Positions 23,825 through 37,582 of a stretch of DNA of 45,350 bases are shown in pieces (within the stretch, counting starts at the first letter, position 1; the number at the start of each line of letters is the position of its first letter). The translations under genes were made by a program, and so were the position numbers. The notes beneath the pieces were generated by a model, which was not told where the DNA came from, searched no databases, and saw only the letters and a list, made by a program, of their open reading frames with translations. The stretch is from a virus (lineage: Duplodnaviria; Heunggongvirae; Uroviricota; Caudoviricetes). Location: the IMG/VR virus record IMGVR_UViG_2541047917_000003; one strand, 5' to 3'.

Positions 23825-24907
23825 ATGAAAAAATTAACAGTGGCAATTTCTGCTGTAGCTGCATCAGTACTGATGGCGATGTCTGCTCAGGCAGCTGAAA
23901 TTTATAATAAAGACAGTAACAAGCTGGATCTGTACGGGAAAGTTAATGCTAAGCACTACTTCTCCTCTAATGATGCAGATGATGGTGATACTACTTATGC
24001 CCGTCTTGGCTTCAAAGGTGAAACCCAAATCAACGATCAACTGACTGGTTTCGGTCAGTGGGAATATGAATTCAAAGGCAACCGCGCTGAATCTCAAGGT
24101 TCCTCCAAAGACAAAACCCGTCTTGCATTTGCAGGCCTGAAATTCGGTGACTACGGCTCAATCGATTACGGCCGTAACTACGGTGTAGCATACGACATCG
24201 GTGCGTGGACTGACGTTCTGCCAGAATTCGGTGGCGATACCTGGACCCAAACAGATGTGTTCATGACTGGTCGCACCACTGGTGTTGCAACCTATCGTAA
24301 CAACGACTTCTTTGGTCTGGTCGATGGCCTGAACTTTGCTGCTCAGTATCAGGGTAAAAATGACCGCACTGACGTAACTGAAGCCAATGGTGATGGTTTC
24401 GGTTTCTCCACTACTTATGAGTATGAAGGATTCGGCGTGGGTGCAACCTATGCTAAATCAGATCGCACTGACGGTCAGGTCGCCTATGGTAAGAGCAAAT
24501 TCAATGCCTCCGGCAAAAATGCGGAAGTATGGGCTGCAGGCCTGAAATATGATGCGAACAATATCTATCTGGCTACCACATATTCTGAAACTCAGAATAT
24601 GACCGTTTTTGGTAATAACCATATTGCAAACAAAGCACAAAACTTTGAAGCAGTAGCACAATATCAGTTTGACTTCGGTCTGCGACCATCTGTTGCTTAC
24701 CTTCAGTCAAAAGGTAAAGACCTTGGTGTTCATGGTGACCGAGACTTAGTCAAGTATGTCGATGTCGGTGCTACTTACTACTTTAATAAAAACATGTCCA
24801 CTTTTGTTGATTACAAAATCAACTTAATTGACGATAGTAAGTTTACCAAAACAGCTGGTATTGATACCGACGACATCGTCGCTGTAGGTCTGGTGTATCA
24901 GTTCTAA
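23825..24907 (+). CDS. Outer-membrane general porin, OmpC/OmpF family (phage-encoded Lc/NmpC-like)
   Basis: 360-aa ORF with signal peptide [30 protein letters not shown]...GKVN start and C-terminal ...VAVGLVYQF; sits between Q and S on the opposite strand as nmpC does in DLP12. Confidence 0.9.
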
Positions 24908-29631: not shown

Positions 29632-31659
<2,028 letters not shown>

Positions 31660-31988: not shown

Positions 31989-32073
31989 TTCTTAAGATTT
32001 CCAATAGTGAATAGTTAGTTGAAAGGTATGCGTGGAAACGCATATGGCCTTAGTTGGTCAGATATCTTGGAAC

Positions 32074-32119
32074 TCGCTTTTCAGCGACGTAGGACGAATG
32101 TCCGTTGTTACAAAGAGCG
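32074..32119 (-). promoter_or_regulatory. nutR-like site (boxA CGCTCTTTG and boxB hairpin TCGCTGAAAAGCGA) between cro and cII
   Basis: Coding-strand boxA-like CGCTCTTTG just after the cro stop, followed by a stem-loop with GAAAA-type loop; matching pair also upstream of N. Confidence 0.6.
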
Positions 32120-32129
32120 GATCCGCTTA

Positions 32130-32345
32130 TTAAGCGGCTTTGTGTTCCGGCGGGAACACGTCATCAAGACTGACTTTTGCGCCTAACTTGTTTAGGCACG
32201 CAACAAGAGCACGGCATGTTTTAAGGTCTGGGAAGCGACGACCAGATTCCCAATGTCCGATAGCTCCCTGTGTGCATCCAACTGCCTTAGCAAGTGTTGT
32301 TTGAGAGATATTCAGTGACTCTCGATATTTTCGTAGGTTGCTCAT
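32130..32345 (-). CDS. cro: Cro-like repressor (HTH, non-lambda specificity)
   Basis: ORF 32130..32438; likely start MSNLRKYRESLNISQTTLAKAVGCTQGAIGHWESGRR (71 aa, SD ggaggg); divergent from cI. Confidence 0.8.
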   Translation of the reverse strand: MSNLRKYRESLNISQTTLAKAVGCTQGAIGHWESGRRFPDLKTCRALVACLNKLGAKVSLDDVFPPEHKAA

Positions 32346-32455
32346 ATGCCCTCCATAGTAAACACGAATAAAAAATACAATATGTACTTTACGAATACAA
32401 GTAAAAATACACATTGTGCATGGATGGTTCCAGTACAAAGCGTAATAATAAGGAC
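32346..32455. promoter_or_regulatory. OR operator / pR-pRM divergent promoter region
   Basis: 110-bp AT-rich spacer between divergent cro and cI; motifs AATACAATATGTACTT (32374-32389) and AGTACAAAGCGTAATAA (32432-32448) recur near pL, consistent with shared repressor operators distinct from lambda. Confidence 0.6.
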
Positions 32456-33115
32456 ATGAAAATGAAATGGTATGAACTGGCTAGATCCAGAATGAAAGAG
32501 CTCGGCATAACTCAAGAGAAGTTAGCCGAAGAGCTAGGTATGACGCAGGGTGGGATTGGACACTGGTTGCGCGGATCTCGTCATCCATCTCTTAGTGATA
32601 TTGGTGTGGTGTTTAAATACCTTGGTATTGATAACATATCATTCAACCACGACGGGACATTTTCACCTGTTGGCGAATACTCATCGGCCCCAGTTAAAAA
32701 ACAATATGAGTACCCTGTTTTTTCTCATGTTCAGGCTGGGATGTTCTCTCCAGAACTCAGAACCTTTACCAAAGGCGATGCGGAGAGATTGGTAAGCACA
32801 ACCAAAAAAGCCAGTGACTCTGCATTCTGGCTTGAGGTTGAAGGTAACTCAATGACCGCACCAACAGGTTCCAAGCCCAGCTTTCCTGACGGGATGTTAA
32901 TTCTGGTTGACCCTGAGCAGGCTGTTGAGCCAGGCGATTTCTGTATAGCCAGACTTGGTGGTGATGAGTTTACCTTCAAGAAACTGATCAGGGATAGCGG
33001 TCAGATGTTTCTACAGCCACTAAACCCACAATACCCAATGATCCCATGCAATGAGAGTTGTTCCGTTGTGGGGAAAGTTATCGCTAGTCAGTGGCCTGAA
33101 GAGACGTTTGGGTGA
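32456..33115 (+). CDS. cI: CI repressor (chimeric: non-lambda DNA-binding domain, lambda-type C-terminal S24 peptidase domain)
   Basis: ATG at 32456. From ...[28 protein letters not shown] to ...[13 protein letters not shown] matches the recalled lambda CI C-terminal domain; N-terminal HTH domain ([37 protein letters not shown]) differs. Confidence 0.9.
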
Positions 33116-33214
33116 TGTGACTGCATGTAATTTATCAAAAGCGCACATACCCTATGCTAAACAACTTACTGATTAATTTACTGAAAATCATTTATTAAAA
33201 AGTAAGGATTGCCA

Positions 33215-34066
33215 ATGAATTTTTCGGAAGAAAAAAATAAAGATTTCCCCAAAAAAGTACAAACTTCGCTATTTGAAGTAGATTGTAATGACGGATACTC
33301 ATTTGTAGATGTCTTGAAGACATGCGAAAATTTCAAACAAAACTATGACTTTGAGTACTCTAACGACACTCGGGCAAGGATAAAAAGTCTAATAGTTAAC
33401 GATGACCAAATCTTTGCTGGGATAACACTCTATGAGCCCAAAGCTTTGGTCCCGGTAACTCCAAAAGATGGAGACCATAACGATTTGCAGGATGTAGATA
33501 ATTATGATAAATGCCATATATTCTTGCTTGCAACAGAAAGCAATATTCTAACAATTTTTCAACTATCAGGAACTCATCCTTTATCTAAGTTAAAAAAAAT
33601 ATTTAGCCTCATGAATATCAATGTGAATATTTCTGAGAAACTCAACAAAGATGCACTTGGCAAGATAATAAAAGATGGAATACGCTCCATCAGCCTAAGT
33701 ATTGAAACAACAAAAGAAGATCTAGAAGAGGCAAAAGCAACATCATTAGGTATCACTGGAAAAGCTAAAGAAGCTTTGTCAAGATTATTTGAGAAAGAGC
33801 AAGATGATGACAACTCTTTCTATGGGCTTCTGACTCTTGACAAGAGACATAACCCAAAACTCTTAAATATTGCGAACAAAAATCCAAGCCTGATCATTGA
33901 TGAATTATCGGAAGAGTTCTTCATCACAACATCAAAAGGCCAAGCGATCAAAAGCTCTGAAATCAAAACAAAAAAAGATTATTACACAAGAAAGTATGGC
34001 TCTACCACCATAAAAGCGGAACACGCTAAGGAAATTCTTGAGCACTTCAAGGATTTCATACTATAA
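33215..34066 (+). CDS. Hypothetical protein in the rexA position (candidate exclusion-system sensor)
   Basis: 283-aa ORF (ATG 33215, SD aaggat) 100 nt downstream of cI on the same strand; AT-, Lys-, Asn- and Asp-rich; no hydrophobic segments; no family recognised. Confidence 0.6.
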   Translation: MNFSEEKNKDFPKKVQTSLFEVDCNDGYSFVDVLKTCENFKQNYDFEYSNDTRARIKSLIVNDDQIFAGITLYEPKALVPVTPKDGDHNDLQDVDNYDKCHIFLLATESNILTIFQLSGTHPLSKLKKIFSLMNINVNISEKLNKDALGKIIKDGIRSISLSIETTKEDLEEAKATSLGITGKAKEALSRLFEKEQDDDNSFYGLLTLDKRHNPKLLNIANKNPSLIIDELSEEFFITTSKGQAIKSSEIKTKKDYYTRKYGSTTIKAEHAKEILEHFKDFIL

Positions 34067-34103
34067 TGGAGGGTTGTACGTATAACCAAAGGGGGAGGTG
34101 TGA

Positions 34104-34595
34104 ATGAGAGGTAAAGATTGGAGTTATATTTTTTCCATAATCTTTTTTATCTGCCTTTCTCTTGTATTAACTTATTATTTACATGATAAGGTTAGATATA
34201 ACAAAGAGTTGCTTGGACTTGTGGCAAATATATTTTCAATATTAACAGGGTTTCTGTTACTTGTTATAACCACAAGTGGAGACGTAGCATCGTTTACAGA
34301 AGGTAAATCAAGATCAGAAAAGTATGCAACTAAGAGGAAATTCGAAATTCGGTTTTCTCGTTACATGATGCTTTTTTACCTCTATCTTACAGTCTTGTGC
34401 TTAATATTCTTCTACTACATGCTGCTGCCACCAGGAGACACCAGTAAAATCTTAGCAAGCAAGCCGCCTGTGACCAACCTGAGTCTGGCACTTGAGTTTA
34501 TTATATGCTGGCTAAGCATAATTTCATTTGGATGCTCTTTTTTCATACCAATAAAGCTGAAACAGATTTATAACGAAAAACTCAAGCAACAATAA
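34104..34595 (+). CDS. Hypothetical four-TM membrane protein in the rexB position (candidate exclusion-system effector)
   Basis: 163-aa ORF (SD gggggagg) with four hydrophobic segments (IFSIIFFICLSLVLTYYL, LLGLVANIFSILTGFLLLVITT, YMMLFYLYLTVLCLIFFYYMLL, LSLALEFIICWLSIISFGCSFFIPI); size and topology as RexB, no sequence similarity seen. Confidence 0.6.
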   Translation: MRGKDWSYIFSIIFFICLSLVLTYYLHDKVRYNKELLGLVANIFSILTGFLLLVITTSGDVASFTEGKSRSEKYATKRKFEIRFSRYMMLFYLYLTVLCLIFFYYMLLPPGDTSKILASKPPVTNLSLALEFIICWLSIISFGCSFFIPIKLKQIYNEKLKQQ

Positions 34596-34620
34596 CCCGG
34601 TCTCAGCGCCGGGTTTTCTT
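34596..34620 (+). terminator. Intrinsic terminator after the rex-position cassette
   Basis: CCCGGTCTCAGCGCCGGG hairpin directly after the stop codon, followed by TTTTCTTT. Confidence 0.75.
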
Positions 34621-34759
34621 TGCCTCACGATCGCCCCACCTAAAAACACATAACCAATTGTATTTATTGAAAAATAAATAGATGCAACCCACTAAACCAC
34701 GCAATTCTGATCTCTCCTTACATCGCCGAGGCAATACATCCACGCTAAAAAACAACACT

Positions 34760-34850
34760 ATTAAATACAAAGCGTTATAAAAAACCACGCCAACTTACAA
34801 CAAATTGTATTGATCTTGTAAAGTACATATCGTACTATTTAATCGTCAGC
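34760..34850 (+). promoter_or_regulatory. OL operator / pL promoter region
   Basis: AATACAAAGCGTTATAA (34764-34780) and AAGTACATATCGTACT (34821-34836) repeat the OR motifs; upstream of nutL and N. Exact -35/-10 not resolved. Confidence 0.5.
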
Positions 34851-34883
34851 AGGACGCTGGAAGCCAAATGGAACAGACTGGCA

Positions 34884-34929
34884 GGCTCTTTAAACAACGT
34901 CGACTCTCGACTACGTGGCTGAAAAGCCA
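34884..34929 (+). promoter_or_regulatory. nutL-like site (boxA GGCTCTTTA and boxB hairpin TGGCTGAAAAGCCA)
   Basis: boxA-like 34884-34892 and a 4-bp stem/GAAAA-type loop hairpin 34916-34929, ~100 nt upstream of the N start. Confidence 0.6.
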
Positions 34930-35027
34930 GATCACCCAACCACATAAGCTGTGGGATGCAATGCCGAAGCAACCGTCTCAGGAGGAGCTTCGAGATTGCA
35001 TCGCCAAAGTTTATTCGGGAGGAATCC

Positions 35028-35300
35028 ATGTCCAGAAAAACAGAATTTAAAGGCACCGCAGCTTCTCGCCGTAGAGCTCGTCGCGCAAATCTGCAAAGTC
35101 AGGAGGCGATCAGCTCCGACAAGCTACACAGGCCAACCCCTTCACGAGTGGTCTTGCAATGCAAGCGCAAACCAGCAATGAGAGCAGAAGTGATAACTCT
35201 GACAACGTTGACCAGAAAATATGAAGGTTCAACTTGTCTTCCGAACGTAGCCATTTACGCGGCAGGCTACAGGAAATCAAAACAACTGACGGCGAGATGA
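35028..35300 (+). CDS. N: N-like transcription antiterminator (non-lambda specificity)
   Basis: ORF track 34956..35300; likely start MSRKTEFKGTAASRRRARRANLQ (SD ggagg). Arginine-rich motif near the N-terminus; first pL gene downstream of nutL. Confidence 0.65.
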   Translation: MSRKTEFKGTAASRRRARRANLQSQEAISSDKLHRPTPSRVVLQCKRKPAMRAEVITLTTLTRKYEGSTCLPNVAIYAAGYRKSKQLTAR

Positions 35301-35315
35301 TAAATCATTTGCTAA

Positions 35316-35897
35316 TTACTTGTTTTTGCCATGCTTATCCTGAGCGATAAGTTCATCCATAAGACTGTCTTTCTTCCCAGCAAACCTAATGTAGCACTCA
35401 TTTCTATAGCGTTCCGGGATAACAAAACGGTCGATTTCAGGATATCCAGTAGCAGAAGGTATCCGAATAAGAAGCCCTTTTTCGAGCAATGAGATTGCTT
35501 CAGGGCTTCCCTTTTCTGTCTTTAGCTGGTTATTCGCGGCTACAGCGAATGCCAAATACGCTCTTTCTCCAAGAGTTAACGAATCAAACAAATCTTGCAC
35601 ATATTTTTCTTCTTTAGATTTGCGCTTCTGAGCAGCGGATACCTCAATTCTTTCAGTCACAGCGTGATAAGCGGAATTAACAACACCGTTAAGCACATAG
35701 CTAACGCAGAACAACAGGATGTAATACATCCAATAATGAGGAAGGATTTCTGGATTATGCAGGTTTATCCATTCTTTTACGCTTACCGGCATAACAATAA
35801 TCAATATGATCAGGATGATTAGCATATGAATCAACTGTTTAAGTGTCATTCCTTGCAGGAAAAAATGCATTAGTTCCTGCCACCATGAGTTGTTCAT
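35316..35897 (-). CDS. sieB: Superinfection exclusion protein SieB-like (membrane protein)
   Basis: 193-aa ORF convergent with N; N-terminal TM segments then soluble C-terminal domain; position between N and ral as lambda sieB. Family assignment from memory. Confidence 0.55.
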   Translation of the reverse strand: MNNSWWQELMHFFLQGMTLKQLIHMLIILIILIIVMPVSVKEWINLHNPEILPHYWMYYILLFCVSYVLNGVVNSAYHAVTERIEVSAAQKRKSKEEKYVQDLFDSLTLGERAYLAFAVAANNQLKTEKGSPEAISLLEKGLLIRIPSATGYPEIDRFVIPERYRNECYIRFAGKKDSLMDELIAQDKHGKNK

Positions 35898-36110
35898 CGG
35901 CGTTTCTCTTTTGCTCTCTGTAGGGGTGAATAGAGTTTATCCGATTTCTCGCTGTAGGGGTACACGAGAACCACCGAGCCTGATGTGGTTAAAAGACAGG
36001 CACAATCTTTACTACCGCAATCCACTATTTAAGGTGATACACGGAAGAAGAATTTGAAGAGTTCGAAGAGCATCCTCAGGATGTGATGGAACAATACCAG
36101 GACTATCCGT

Positions 36111-36311
36111 ATGACTACGACTATTGATAAAAATCAATGGTGTGGACAATTCAAGCGATGCAATGGATGCAAGCTGCAATCGGAATGCATGGTTAAGCCT
36201 GAAGAAATGTTTCCTGTAATGGAAGATGGGAAATATGTCGATAAATGGGCAATACGAACGACGGCAATGATTGCCAGAGAACTTGGTAAACAGAACAACA
36301 AAGCTGCCTGA
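36111..36311 (+). CDS. ral: Restriction alleviation protein Ral
   Basis: 66-aa ORF MTTTIDKNQWCGQFKRCNGCKLQSECMVKPEEMF...; size and position as lambda Ral. Confidence 0.7.
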   Translation: MTTTIDKNQWCGQFKRCNGCKLQSECMVKPEEMFPVMEDGKYVDKWAIRTTAMIARELGKQNNKAA

Positions 36312-36493
36312 TAGTGGCCTTTATTTTTGGCATAAATAACAGAATAAACACTGCACTGTGTATTCATTCCAACGAGTGAATACACGGAGCAATGTCGCTC
36401 GTAACTAAACAGGAGCCGACTTGTTCTGATTATTGGAAATCTTCTTTGCCCTCCAGTGTGAGGGCGATTTTTTATCTATGAGGATATGAATAG

Positions 36494-36862
36494 ATGTCAA
36501 ACATCAAAAAATACATCATTGATTACGACTGGAAAGCATCAATAGAAATTGAAATCGATCATGACGTAATGACAGAGGAAAAACTTCACCAGATTAATAA
36601 TTTCTGGTCAGACTCTGAATACCGACTCAATAAACACGGCTCTGTATTAAATGCTGTATTAATCATGCTGGCGCAACATGCTCTGCTTATAGCAATTTCA
36701 AGCGACTTAAATGCATATGGTGTTGTGTGTGAGTTCGACTGGAATGATGGAAATGGTCAGGAAGGATGGCCTCCAATGGATGGTAGCGAAGGAATAAGAA
36801 TTACCGATATCGATACATCAGGAATATTTGATCCAGATGATATGACTATCAAAGCCGCCTGA
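36494..36862 (+). CDS. ea10: Ea10-like protein
   Basis: 122-aa ORF in the lambda ea10 position. Confidence 0.65.
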   Translation: MSNIKKYIIDYDWKASIEIEIDHDVMTEEKLHQINNFWSDSEYRLNKHGSVLNAVLIMLAQHALLIAISSDLNAYGVVCEFDWNDGNGQEGWPPMDGSEGIRITDIDTSGIFDPDDMTIKAA

Positions 36863-36934
36863 GCGCGGCGTTACCGCATACCAATAACGCTTCACTCGAG
36901 GCGTTTTTCGTTATGTATAAATAAGGAGCACACC

Positions 36935-37099
36935 ATGCAATATGCCATTGCAGGGTGGCCTGTTGCTGGCTGCCCTTCCGAATCTTTACTTGAACGAATC
37001 ACCCGTAAATTACGTGACGGATGGAAACGCCTTATCGACATACTTAATCAGCCAGGAGTCCCAAAAAATGGATCAAACACTTATGGCTATCCAGACTAA
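36935..37099 (+). CDS. cIII: CIII (FtsH inhibitor stabilising CII)
   Basis: 54-aa [57 protein letters not shown], matching recalled lambda CIII; below ORF-track cutoff; start 7 nt before ORF 36942. Confidence 0.85.
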   Translation: MQYAIAGWPVAGCPSESLLERITRKLRDGWKRLIDILNQPGVPKNGSNTYGYPD

Positions 37100-37232
37100 A
37101 TTCACTATCGCCACTTTTATTGGCGATGAAAAGATGTTTCGTGAGGCCGTCGACGCTTATAAAAAATGGATATTAATACTGAAACTGAGATCAAGCAAAA
37201 GCATTCACTACCCCCCTTCCCTGTTTTCCTAA
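37068..37232 (+). CDS. kil: Kil (FtsZ-directed cell-division inhibitor)
   Basis: Start [22 protein letters not shown] overlapping the cIII 3' end by 32 nt as in lambda; frame here runs 54 codons, about 7 longer than I recall for lambda Kil. Confidence 0.55.
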
Positions 37233-37582
37233 TCAGCCCGGCATTTCGCGGACGATATTTTCACAGCTATTTCAGGAGTTCAGCCATGAACGCTTATTAC
37301 ATTCAGGATCGTCTTGAGGCTCAGAGCTGGGCGCGTCACTACCAGCAGATCGCCCGTGAAGAGAAAGAGGCAGAACTGGCAGACGACATGGAAAAAGGCC
37401 TGCCCCAGCACCTGTTTGAATCGCTATGCATCGATCATTTGCAACGCCACGGGGCCAGCAAAAAAGCCATTACCCGTGCGTTTGATGACGATGTTGAGTT
37501 TCAGGAGCGCATGGCAGAACACATCCGGTACATGGTTGAAACCATTGCTCACCACCAGGTTGATATTGATTCAGAGGTATAA
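37166..37582 (+). CDS. gam: Gam (RecBCD inhibitor)
   Basis: 138-aa [36 protein letters not shown]..., lambda Gam-like. Confidence 0.95.

What the first reader, a model, noticed from the sequence alone, without database searches (positions are those of the whole stretch)
35316..35897. SieB-like membrane protein convergent with N: a second lysogen-expressed exclusion candidate
Seen: a 193-aa ORF on the strand opposite to pL transcription, with N-terminal hydrophobic segments and a soluble C-terminal domain, AT-rich, with its own upstream spacer. Established knowledge: lambda and P22 sieB occupy this position and abort lytic growth of superinfecting phages. Inference: with the rex-slot cassette and the porin, this prophage may carry three independent host-protective cargo functions.
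Basis: partly seen in the sequence, partly recalled or inferred. Interest (0 to 1): 0.35.

Follow-up and report, generated by a model that had tools for sequence, protein, structure and literature searches.

The report
Ordinary P22-type sieB exclusion gene
The ORF is an intact copy of sieB, a well-known prophage gene that makes a lysogen abort infections by other lambdoid phages; it is already annotated as such in public E. coli genomes, so the finding is correct but ordinary.

The parts
35316..35897 (-). sieB coding sequence (193 aa plus stop), P22-type allele
   Evidence: ORF list; Pfam PF14163 90.1 bits against a cut-off of 26; phrog_1301 residues 1-193 of 193, E=2e-123; 99.5% identical to HK140 and 85% to P22 SieB; RefSeq WP_021566050.1 'super-infection exclusion protein B' at the same coordinates.
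35316..35825 (-). esc: in-frame internal reading frame starting at Met25 of sieB (169 aa). In P22 it encodes the SieB inhibitor.
   Evidence: P22 records annotate Esc from codon 25 of sieB. Met25 is invariant in the window/P22/lambda alignment and nearly invariant in 21 homologues. The ATG is at 35825..35823 on the minus strand. Function here is inferred from P22.
35934..35964 (-). PsieB promoter, counterpart of the feature annotated in P22 as 'sieB RNA start site'
   Evidence: P22 feature L002:2433-2463 maps to this stretch with 31/31 identity. It is also conserved in lambda. The generic sigma-70 consensus scan did not flag it, so the assignment rests on identity to the P22 feature.
35826..35933 (+). 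Segment of the pL read-through transcript that is antisense to the sieB 5' UTR and codons 1-24. It is the likely source of a sas-type antisense RNA.
   Evidence: Inferred. The DNA is 34/37 and 69/72 identical to P22. Reviews describe sas as a 105-nt cis-antisense RNA that switches translation from SieB to Esc. The exact sas ends were not available, Rfam has no model for it, and folding showed no unusual stability (z=-0.19).
35778..35834 (-). Codons 22-40: predicted transmembrane helix 1
   Evidence: Hydropathy peak of 3.03; helix 19-35 in the AF2 model; strongly conserved.
35670..35738 (-). Codons 54-76: predicted transmembrane helix 2. It follows the invariant loop KEWxNxxNPEIxPxxWMYY.
   Evidence: Hydropathy of 1.4-1.5. 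The invariant columns cluster at residues 41-66. The basic stretch KRKSK after TM2 suggests a cytoplasmic C-terminus by the positive-inside rule, which is an inference.
35373..35585 (-). Codons ~105-175: soluble C-terminal domain with a predicted winged-helix-like fold
35911..35961 (.). Two copies of a 17-nt direct repeat (35911-35927 and 35945-35961, 15/17 identical, 34-nt spacing) that bracket the PsieB -10 region
   Evidence: the repeat finder. The core ACCCCTACAG is conserved in P22 and lambda. Its function is unknown.
35028..35300 (+). N antiterminator gene (flanking context), convergent with sieB
   Evidence: Pfam PF25694 N_peptide 110.7 bits; RefSeq CDS at 35028..35300.
36111..36311 (+). 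ral (flanking context), arranged head-to-head with sieB across the 213-bp spacer
   Evidence: Pfam PF11058 Ral 162.5 bits; RefSeq annotation.

Best explanation
This is an intact, functional P22-type sieB gene in a lambda-like E. coli prophage. Shown here: family membership, gene position, an intact promoter and an intact nested esc frame. From established P22 work, as cited in the papers read here: sieB is transcribed in the lysogen from its own weak constitutive promoter, on the strand opposite to pL. It yields full-length SieB and, from Met25, the shorter Esc. When a lambdoid phage that lacks a matching esc/sas superinfects, SieB stops macromolecular synthesis midway through the lytic cycle, so the infection aborts. 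A phage carrying the same module escapes, because its pL transcript reads antisense through sieB and is reported to give the sas RNA. That RNA blocks SieB translation while leaving Esc translation on, and Esc inhibits SieB. Inferred here: SieB is an N-in/C-in two-helix inner-membrane protein. The highly conserved membrane hairpin and periplasmic loop are the likely effector or oligomerisation module. The faster-evolving cytoplasmic winged-helix-like domain is the likely sensor or specificity module. Esc lacks the N-terminal 24 residues and probably acts as a dominant-negative partner, much as the lambda antiholin S107 inhibits the holin S105.
For: Pfam SieB scores 90.1 bits against a cut-off of 26, and phrog_1301 matches over the full length. 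The protein is 85% identical to P22 SieB, 99.5% to HK140 and 98.4% to the annotated VT1-Sakai sieB. Synteny matches lambda (N, sieB on the opposite strand, ral, ea10, cIII) and P22 (gene 24, sieB/esc, ral). The PsieB promoter is 31/31 identical to the P22 feature, and Met25 is conserved. The dN/dS against P22 is 0.35 overall, so the gene is under purifying selection. RefSeq gives the same name, and 587 of 5,426 E. coli genomes carry the allele. The phenotype and the Esc/sas switch are described in PMC10883804, PMC12197685, PMC10002423 and PMC3224144. Hydropathy and the AF2 model support two transmembrane helices plus a confident C-terminal domain, and the winged-helix hits come.
Against: No phenotype can be measured here. 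The characterised protein is P22's, studied in Salmonella, and 28 of 193 residues differ, mostly in the C-terminal domain, so the exclusion spectrum in E. coli is unknown. The generic promoter scan did not detect PsieB. The sas RNA could not be mapped, and the antisense strand shows no unusual folding. The winged-helix similarity is modest: about 10% identity and a best Foldseek E of 1.3e-2. The N-terminal 60 residues of the model have pLDDT of only 54-67. The membrane-effector and dominant-negative steps are inference by analogy. The host prophage carries an IS insertion in gene O, so the module may sit in a defective prophage, although that should not affect sieB expression.
Confidence: 0.88

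Rival explanations
1. The gene is a decaying, functionless remnant in a defective prophage. It keeps sequence homology to sieB but no longer provides exclusion.
For: The prophage in the window has a ~1.95-kb IS21-family element inserted in the 5' end of replication gene O, which is absent from an otherwise 99.8-100% identical prophage. The prophage is therefore probably defective.
Against: The ORF is full length and 99.5% identical to the gene of the isolated phage HK140. The promoter and the Esc start are intact. Comparison with P22 shows purifying selection, at dN/dS 0.35. The IS insertion is strain-specific and so probably recent.
Confidence: 0.05
2. The protein is a SieB-family member whose main role is not abortive infection. 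Instead it would be a membrane-tethered winged-helix regulator that binds DNA, for example by anchoring or silencing incoming phage DNA at the membrane.
For: The C-terminal domain is modelled with confidence (pLDDT ~90). Its best structural matches are DNA-binding MarR-type winged-helix proteins.
Against: The published P22 phenotype is a late arrest of macromolecular synthesis, not a block to early gene expression (PMC10883804). Winged helices are very common and often bind proteins. The structural scores are modest, and there is no sequence match to any HTH family in Pfam.
Confidence: 0.05
3. The ORF is a chance reading frame antisense to the pL operon, and the real functional element is only the antisense RNA or the spacer.
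For: None beyond its antisense location and low GC.
Against: There are 118 protein homologues across Escherichia, Salmonella, Citrobacter, Yersinia and others, with conserved residues, plus a Pfam family match and a purifying-selection signature.
Confidence: 0.01

Closest known systems
Salmonella phage P22 SieB/Esc (P22gp44/gp45; Ranade & Poteete 1993, cited via PMC3224144)
   Same: 85% amino-acid identity over 191 residues, with almost the same length (193 against 192 aa). The PsieB promoter is identical, the Met25 Esc start is conserved, and the position is the same: between the N-type antiterminator and ral, on the opposite strand.
   Different: 28 residues differ, 22 of them between residues 81 and 186, in the soluble half of the protein. 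The host is E. coli rather than Salmonella. The flanking N allele is unrelated to P22 gene 24, because similarity ends at the stop codon. The phage backbone is lambda-like (lambda-type head, tail, bet/exo), not P22-like.
Phage lambda SieB (NP_597779, 184 aa)
   Same: Same Pfam family, the same N/ral slot and orientation, and a nearly identical ral-to-promoter upstream region. The two-transmembrane N-terminus and Met25 are conserved.
   Different: Only 23-26% identity. The DNA diverges just downstream of the conserved promoter, and the lambda protein lacks about 22 residues of the C-terminal domain.
E. coli phages HK140 and VT1-Sakai, and lambda-like phages ev017, ev207, 2G7b and PhiR11_1
   Same: 91.7-99.5% identical proteins, annotated as SieB or superinfection exclusion protein. 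In ev207, ev017 and PhiR63_2 the whole N-sieB-ral-ea10 block is 97% identical at the DNA level.
   Different: None of functional significance was detected. This is essentially the same gene.
Lambda holin/antiholin S105/S107 (mechanistic analogy only)
   Same: One gene has two in-frame starts and gives a small membrane effector plus an N-terminally different inhibitor of it (PMC3224144 table).
   Different: There is no sequence or family relationship. In S the longer product is the inhibitor, whereas in sieB it is the shorter one. Pore formation by SieB has not been shown.

Membership tests
SieB superinfection exclusion protein B (Pfam PF14163 / phrog_1301) | Sequence match to the family model above the curated threshold | tested here: met
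   PF14163 scores 90.1 bits against a gathering cut-off of 26, E=1.4e-25, covering profile positions 2-144 of 147. phrog_1301 matches residues 1-193 of 193, E=2e-123.
SieB superinfection exclusion protein B (Pfam PF14163 / phrog_1301) | Close similarity to the experimentally characterised member (P22 SieB) | tested here: met
   85% identity over 191 aa, with no gaps until the extreme C-terminus.
SieB superinfection exclusion protein B (Pfam PF14163 / phrog_1301) | Location in the pL operon between the N-type antiterminator and ral, transcribed from the opposite strand | tested here: met
   N lies at 35028..35300 (+), sieB at 35316..35897 (-) and ral at 36111..36311 (+). The layout is the same in lambda and P22.
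SieB superinfection exclusion protein B (Pfam PF14163 / phrog_1301) | Own promoter (PsieB) upstream, independent of pL | tested here: met
   Window 35934..35964 is 31/31 identical to the P22 feature 'promoter, sieB RNA start site'. Activity in this strain was not measured.
SieB superinfection exclusion protein B (Pfam PF14163 / phrog_1301) | Nested in-frame esc start that gives the SieB inhibitor | tested here: met
   Met25 (ATG at 35825) aligns with the annotated P22 Esc start and is conserved across homologues. Translation from it was not tested.
SieB superinfection exclusion protein B (Pfam PF14163 / phrog_1301) | Two N-terminal membrane-spanning segments plus a soluble C-terminal domain | tested here: met
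   Hydropathy and the AF2 secondary structure. Membrane insertion itself is an inference.
SieB superinfection exclusion protein B (Pfam PF14163 / phrog_1301) | sas antisense RNA, processed from the pL transcript, that switches translation from SieB to Esc | tested here: inconclusive
   The antisense template (35826..35933) is 92-96% identical to P22. However, the sas ends were not available, Rfam has no model, and the fold z-score is -0.19.
SieB superinfection exclusion protein B (Pfam PF14163 / phrog_1301) | Abortive exclusion of superinfecting heteroimmune lambdoid phages | not testable with these tools
   This needs plaque or burst assays. The phenotype is known only for P22 and lambda, from the literature.
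RexA/RexB (considered for the neighbouring rex-slot pair, not for sieB) | Sequence similarity to lambda RexA or RexB | tested here: not met
   BLASTP best E is 2.6 for the 285-aa ORF against RexA and 1.0 for the 163-aa ORF against RexB. Neither ORF has a Pfam or PADLOC family.

The most novel reading that the evidence does not exclude
SieB would be a membrane-tethered winged-helix sensor. Its fast-evolving cytoplasmic winged-helix-like domain would recognise a mid-cycle phage nucleic acid or protein, and would pass that signal to the ultra-conserved two-helix membrane hairpin. The hairpin would then collapse membrane function. Esc would poison the oligomer because it lacks the N-terminal amphipathic helix. 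This would give a concrete, testable mechanism for a classic exclusion gene whose mode of action has stayed obscure for decades.
Probability: 0.2. Interest if true: 0.45.

Novelty: already known. Interest (0 to 1): 0.08.

Why it matters
For the scan it matters little. The gene is a textbook lambdoid moron, it is correctly named in RefSeq, and it is present in about 11% of complete E. coli genomes. Its practical value is as an annotation anchor: it fixes the orientation and boundaries of the pL operon and shows that the prophage has a standard lysogen-expressed exclusion module. The only mildly new point is structural. SieB's mechanism is still called 'less well-understood' (PMC10883804). The predicted winged-helix-like C-terminal domain, together with the contrast between a highly constrained membrane hairpin and a faster-evolving soluble domain, suggests a sensor/effector split that could be tested.

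Tried and rejected
(1) The generic promoter and terminator scan of 34500..36600 did not find PsieB and showed no convincing sieB terminator, so the promoter was assigned by identity to the P22 feature instead. (2) The Rfam scan of 32000..37500 found no sas or other RNA family at sieB; it found only the lambda cIII thermoregulator. (3) Folding the strand antisense to the sieB 5' end gave z=-0.19, which provides no structural support for or against a sas RNA. (4) NCBIfam and PADLOC gave only sub-threshold noise for SieB, so SieB is not represented in PADLOC v2. (5) The PDB sequence search found no solved relative. (6) The primary paper PMC204922 is not held, so the P22 facts come from secondary sources and GenBank annotation. 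(7) One literature search was swamped by botanical 'Sieb.' matches. (8) I tested whether the rex-slot pair is a diverged RexAB and found no similarity. (9) Alignment A3 accidentally dropped the start codon and included two aberrant sequences; it was redone as A4. (10) The PADLOC 'DrmD' hit on the 260-aa ORF was rejected as a defence call, because the protein is the IstB ATPase of an IS21-family element (Pfam IstB_IS21, 372.7 bits).

Full report
OBSERVATION. The repressor (32414..33115; Peptidase_S24 plus HTH_3), N (35028..35300; N_peptide, 110.7 bits) and ral (36111..36311; Ral, 162.5 bits) are all on the plus strand. pL transcription therefore runs rightwards in window coordinates, and the ORF is antisense to it. 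Its stop codon is 15 nt from the N stop codon, so the two genes are convergent, and its start faces ral across a 213-bp spacer. Hydropathy analysis finds a strong hydrophobic segment at about residues 22-40 and a second at about 51-78, with a hydrophilic remainder. GC is 40.0% against 50.6% for the window, which is in the lowest 7.6% of same-size windows. Every descriptive element of the finding is confirmed.

IDENTITY. The protein scores 90.1 bits on Pfam PF14163 (SieB), against a gathering cut-off of 26. It matches phrog_1301 end to end with E=2e-123. A tblastn search of 50,697 phage records finds 91 records. The best matches are HK140 at 99.5%, VT1-Sakai (gene annotated sieB) at 98.4%, and a series of lambda-like phages at 92-98%. 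Phage P22 itself is 85% identical over 191 of 193 residues. Direct alignment gives 85% identity to P22 SieB and only 26% to lambda SieB. The pairwise BLASTP against lambda gives 23% over 128 residues with E=5e-6. So this is the P22-type allele of sieB, not the lambda-type allele, even though the prophage backbone is lambda-like, with lambda-type head and tail genes and bet/exo/gam/kil/cIII.

SYNTENY AND REGULATORY ANATOMY. The annotated lambda record has N, then SieB on the opposite strand, then ral, ea10 and cIII. The annotated P22 record has gene 24, then SieB with nested Esc on the opposite strand, then ral, together with a promoter feature labelled 'sieB RNA start site'. The window has the same order. 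A three-way DNA alignment shows that the ral-to-promoter region is almost invariant in the window, P22 and lambda. Mapped segment by segment against P22, the promoter feature is 31/31 identical (window 35964..35934), the 5' UTR is 34/37, codons 1-24 are 69/72 and the Esc portion is 447/507. Similarity ends at the stop codon, where only 9/21 bases match. The module is therefore a cleanly bounded mosaic unit. Lambda diverges just downstream of the conserved promoter. The Esc start annotated in P22 is codon 25. Met25 is invariant in the three-way alignment and nearly invariant among 21 homologues spanning 37-92% identity. In the window it is the ATG at 35825. The generic sigma-70 scan did not flag the promoter, so the promoter assignment rests on identity to the P22 feature, not on consensus strength.

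IS IT FUNCTIONAL? The frame is intact. A Nei-Gojobori comparison with P22 gives dN/dS of 0.35 overall: 0.14 for codons 1-80 (the membrane half) and 0.42 for codons 81-186 (the soluble half). Across homologues the invariant residues cluster in TM1, the short loop and TM2 (KEWxNxxNPEIxPxxWMYYxLLFCxS), whereas the C-terminal half is variable. The gene therefore looks maintained by selection. The window's prophage does carry an IS21-family insertion in replication gene O, which is absent from a 99.8-100% identical prophage in strain S1-CAM-01-C. This should not affect a gene that has its own promoter.

COMPARISON AND NOVELTY. All sequence-testable defining features of SieB are met: the family model, close similarity to the characterised protein, position and orientation, promoter, nested esc and membrane architecture. 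The sas RNA test is inconclusive, and the phenotype cannot be tested here. RefSeq already annotates this exact ORF as 'super-infection exclusion protein B' (WP_021566050.1). A megablast search finds the allele in 587 of 5,426 complete E. coli genomes, with the same annotation in every listed row. The protein database holds 118 homologues in Escherichia, Salmonella, Citrobacter, Leclercia, Yersinia and others, many already named SieB. The finding is correct and already known.

THE WIDER INFERENCE. SieB is solid. The rex-slot pair is real: 33209..34066 (285 aa) and 34104..34595 (163 aa, hydrophobic), with GC of 34-35%. It is followed by a terminator-like hairpin at 34594..34615, and it is 99.7% identical in the isolated phages 2G7b and PhiR11_1. 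It has only an unknown-function PHROG for the larger protein and no Pfam or PADLOC family. It shows no BLASTP similarity to RexA/RexB despite matching sizes and architecture, so its function is open. The porin (23825..24907; Porin_1, 504.7 bits) is an OmpC-type moron lying between the Q antiterminator and the lysis genes. A protective role for it is speculation.

VERDICT. Novelty is 'already known' and interest is low. The only residual novelty is the tentative winged-helix prediction for the C-terminal domain.

Noticed in passing
window 33209..34066 (+) and 34104..34595 (+), with a hairpin at 34594..34615: This is a two-gene cassette in the rex slot, between the repressor and pL. It consists of a 285-aa soluble protein (phrog_23561, unknown function) and a 163-aa hydrophobic protein with no family, at GC 34-35% against 50.6% for the window. 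The sizes and architecture mirror RexA (279 aa) and RexB (144 aa), but there is no BLASTP similarity and no Pfam or PADLOC hit. A terminator-like hairpin follows directly, as timm does in lambda. The cassette is 99.7% identical in phages 2G7b and PhiR11_1, and the whole cI-to-ea10 block occurs in only 7 of 5,426 E. coli genomes. It is more interesting than sieB as a candidate for a novel lysogen-expressed defence.
   Followed up: partly
window 29638..31585: An IS21-family insertion of about 1.95 kb (IstA 340 aa at 29718..30740; IstB 260 aa at 30737..31519) sits in the 5' end of replication gene O. It is absent from the otherwise 99.8-100% identical prophage of E. coli S1-CAM-01-C (NZ_CP145718). 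The prophage in the window is probably replication-defective. The PADLOC 'DrmD' hit on IstB is a misleading match to the IstB ATPase.
   Followed up: partly
window 35911..35927 and 35945..35961: A 17-nt direct repeat (TTGCTCTCTGTAGGGGT / TTTCTCGCTGTAGGGGT, 34-nt spacing) brackets the -10 region of PsieB. Its core ACCCCTACAG is conserved in P22 and lambda, even though the lambda coding sequence diverges just downstream. It could be a regulator-binding or RNA-processing element, but the function is unknown.
   Followed up: no
window 36922..36980 (+): The Rfam Lambda_thermo element (cIII thermoregulator, RF01804) matches at 88.5 bits against a gathering score of 50. It overlaps the start of cIII, as expected for a lambda-like pL operon.
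   Followed up: no
window 23825..24907 (+): An OmpC-type porin gene (Porin_1, 504.7 bits; RefSeq 'porin OmpC') lies between the Q antiterminator (quuD) and the lysis cassette, on the strand opposite to late transcription. This is an nmpC-like moron, and a protective role is unproven.
   Followed up: no
window 34868..35050 (+): A 60-aa ORF (phrog_3137, unknown function; RefSeq hypothetical protein) lies just upstream of N and overlaps its start, in the region where nutL would be expected. It may be a real small gene or an annotation artefact.
   Followed up: no
SieB family alignment A4 (residues 41-66 of the window protein): The most conserved part of SieB across homologues at 37-92% identity is the short inter-helix loop and the start of TM2 (KEWxNxxNPEIxPxxWMYYxLLFCxS), not the soluble domain. 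This suggests the membrane and periplasmic face is the functional core.
   Followed up: partly
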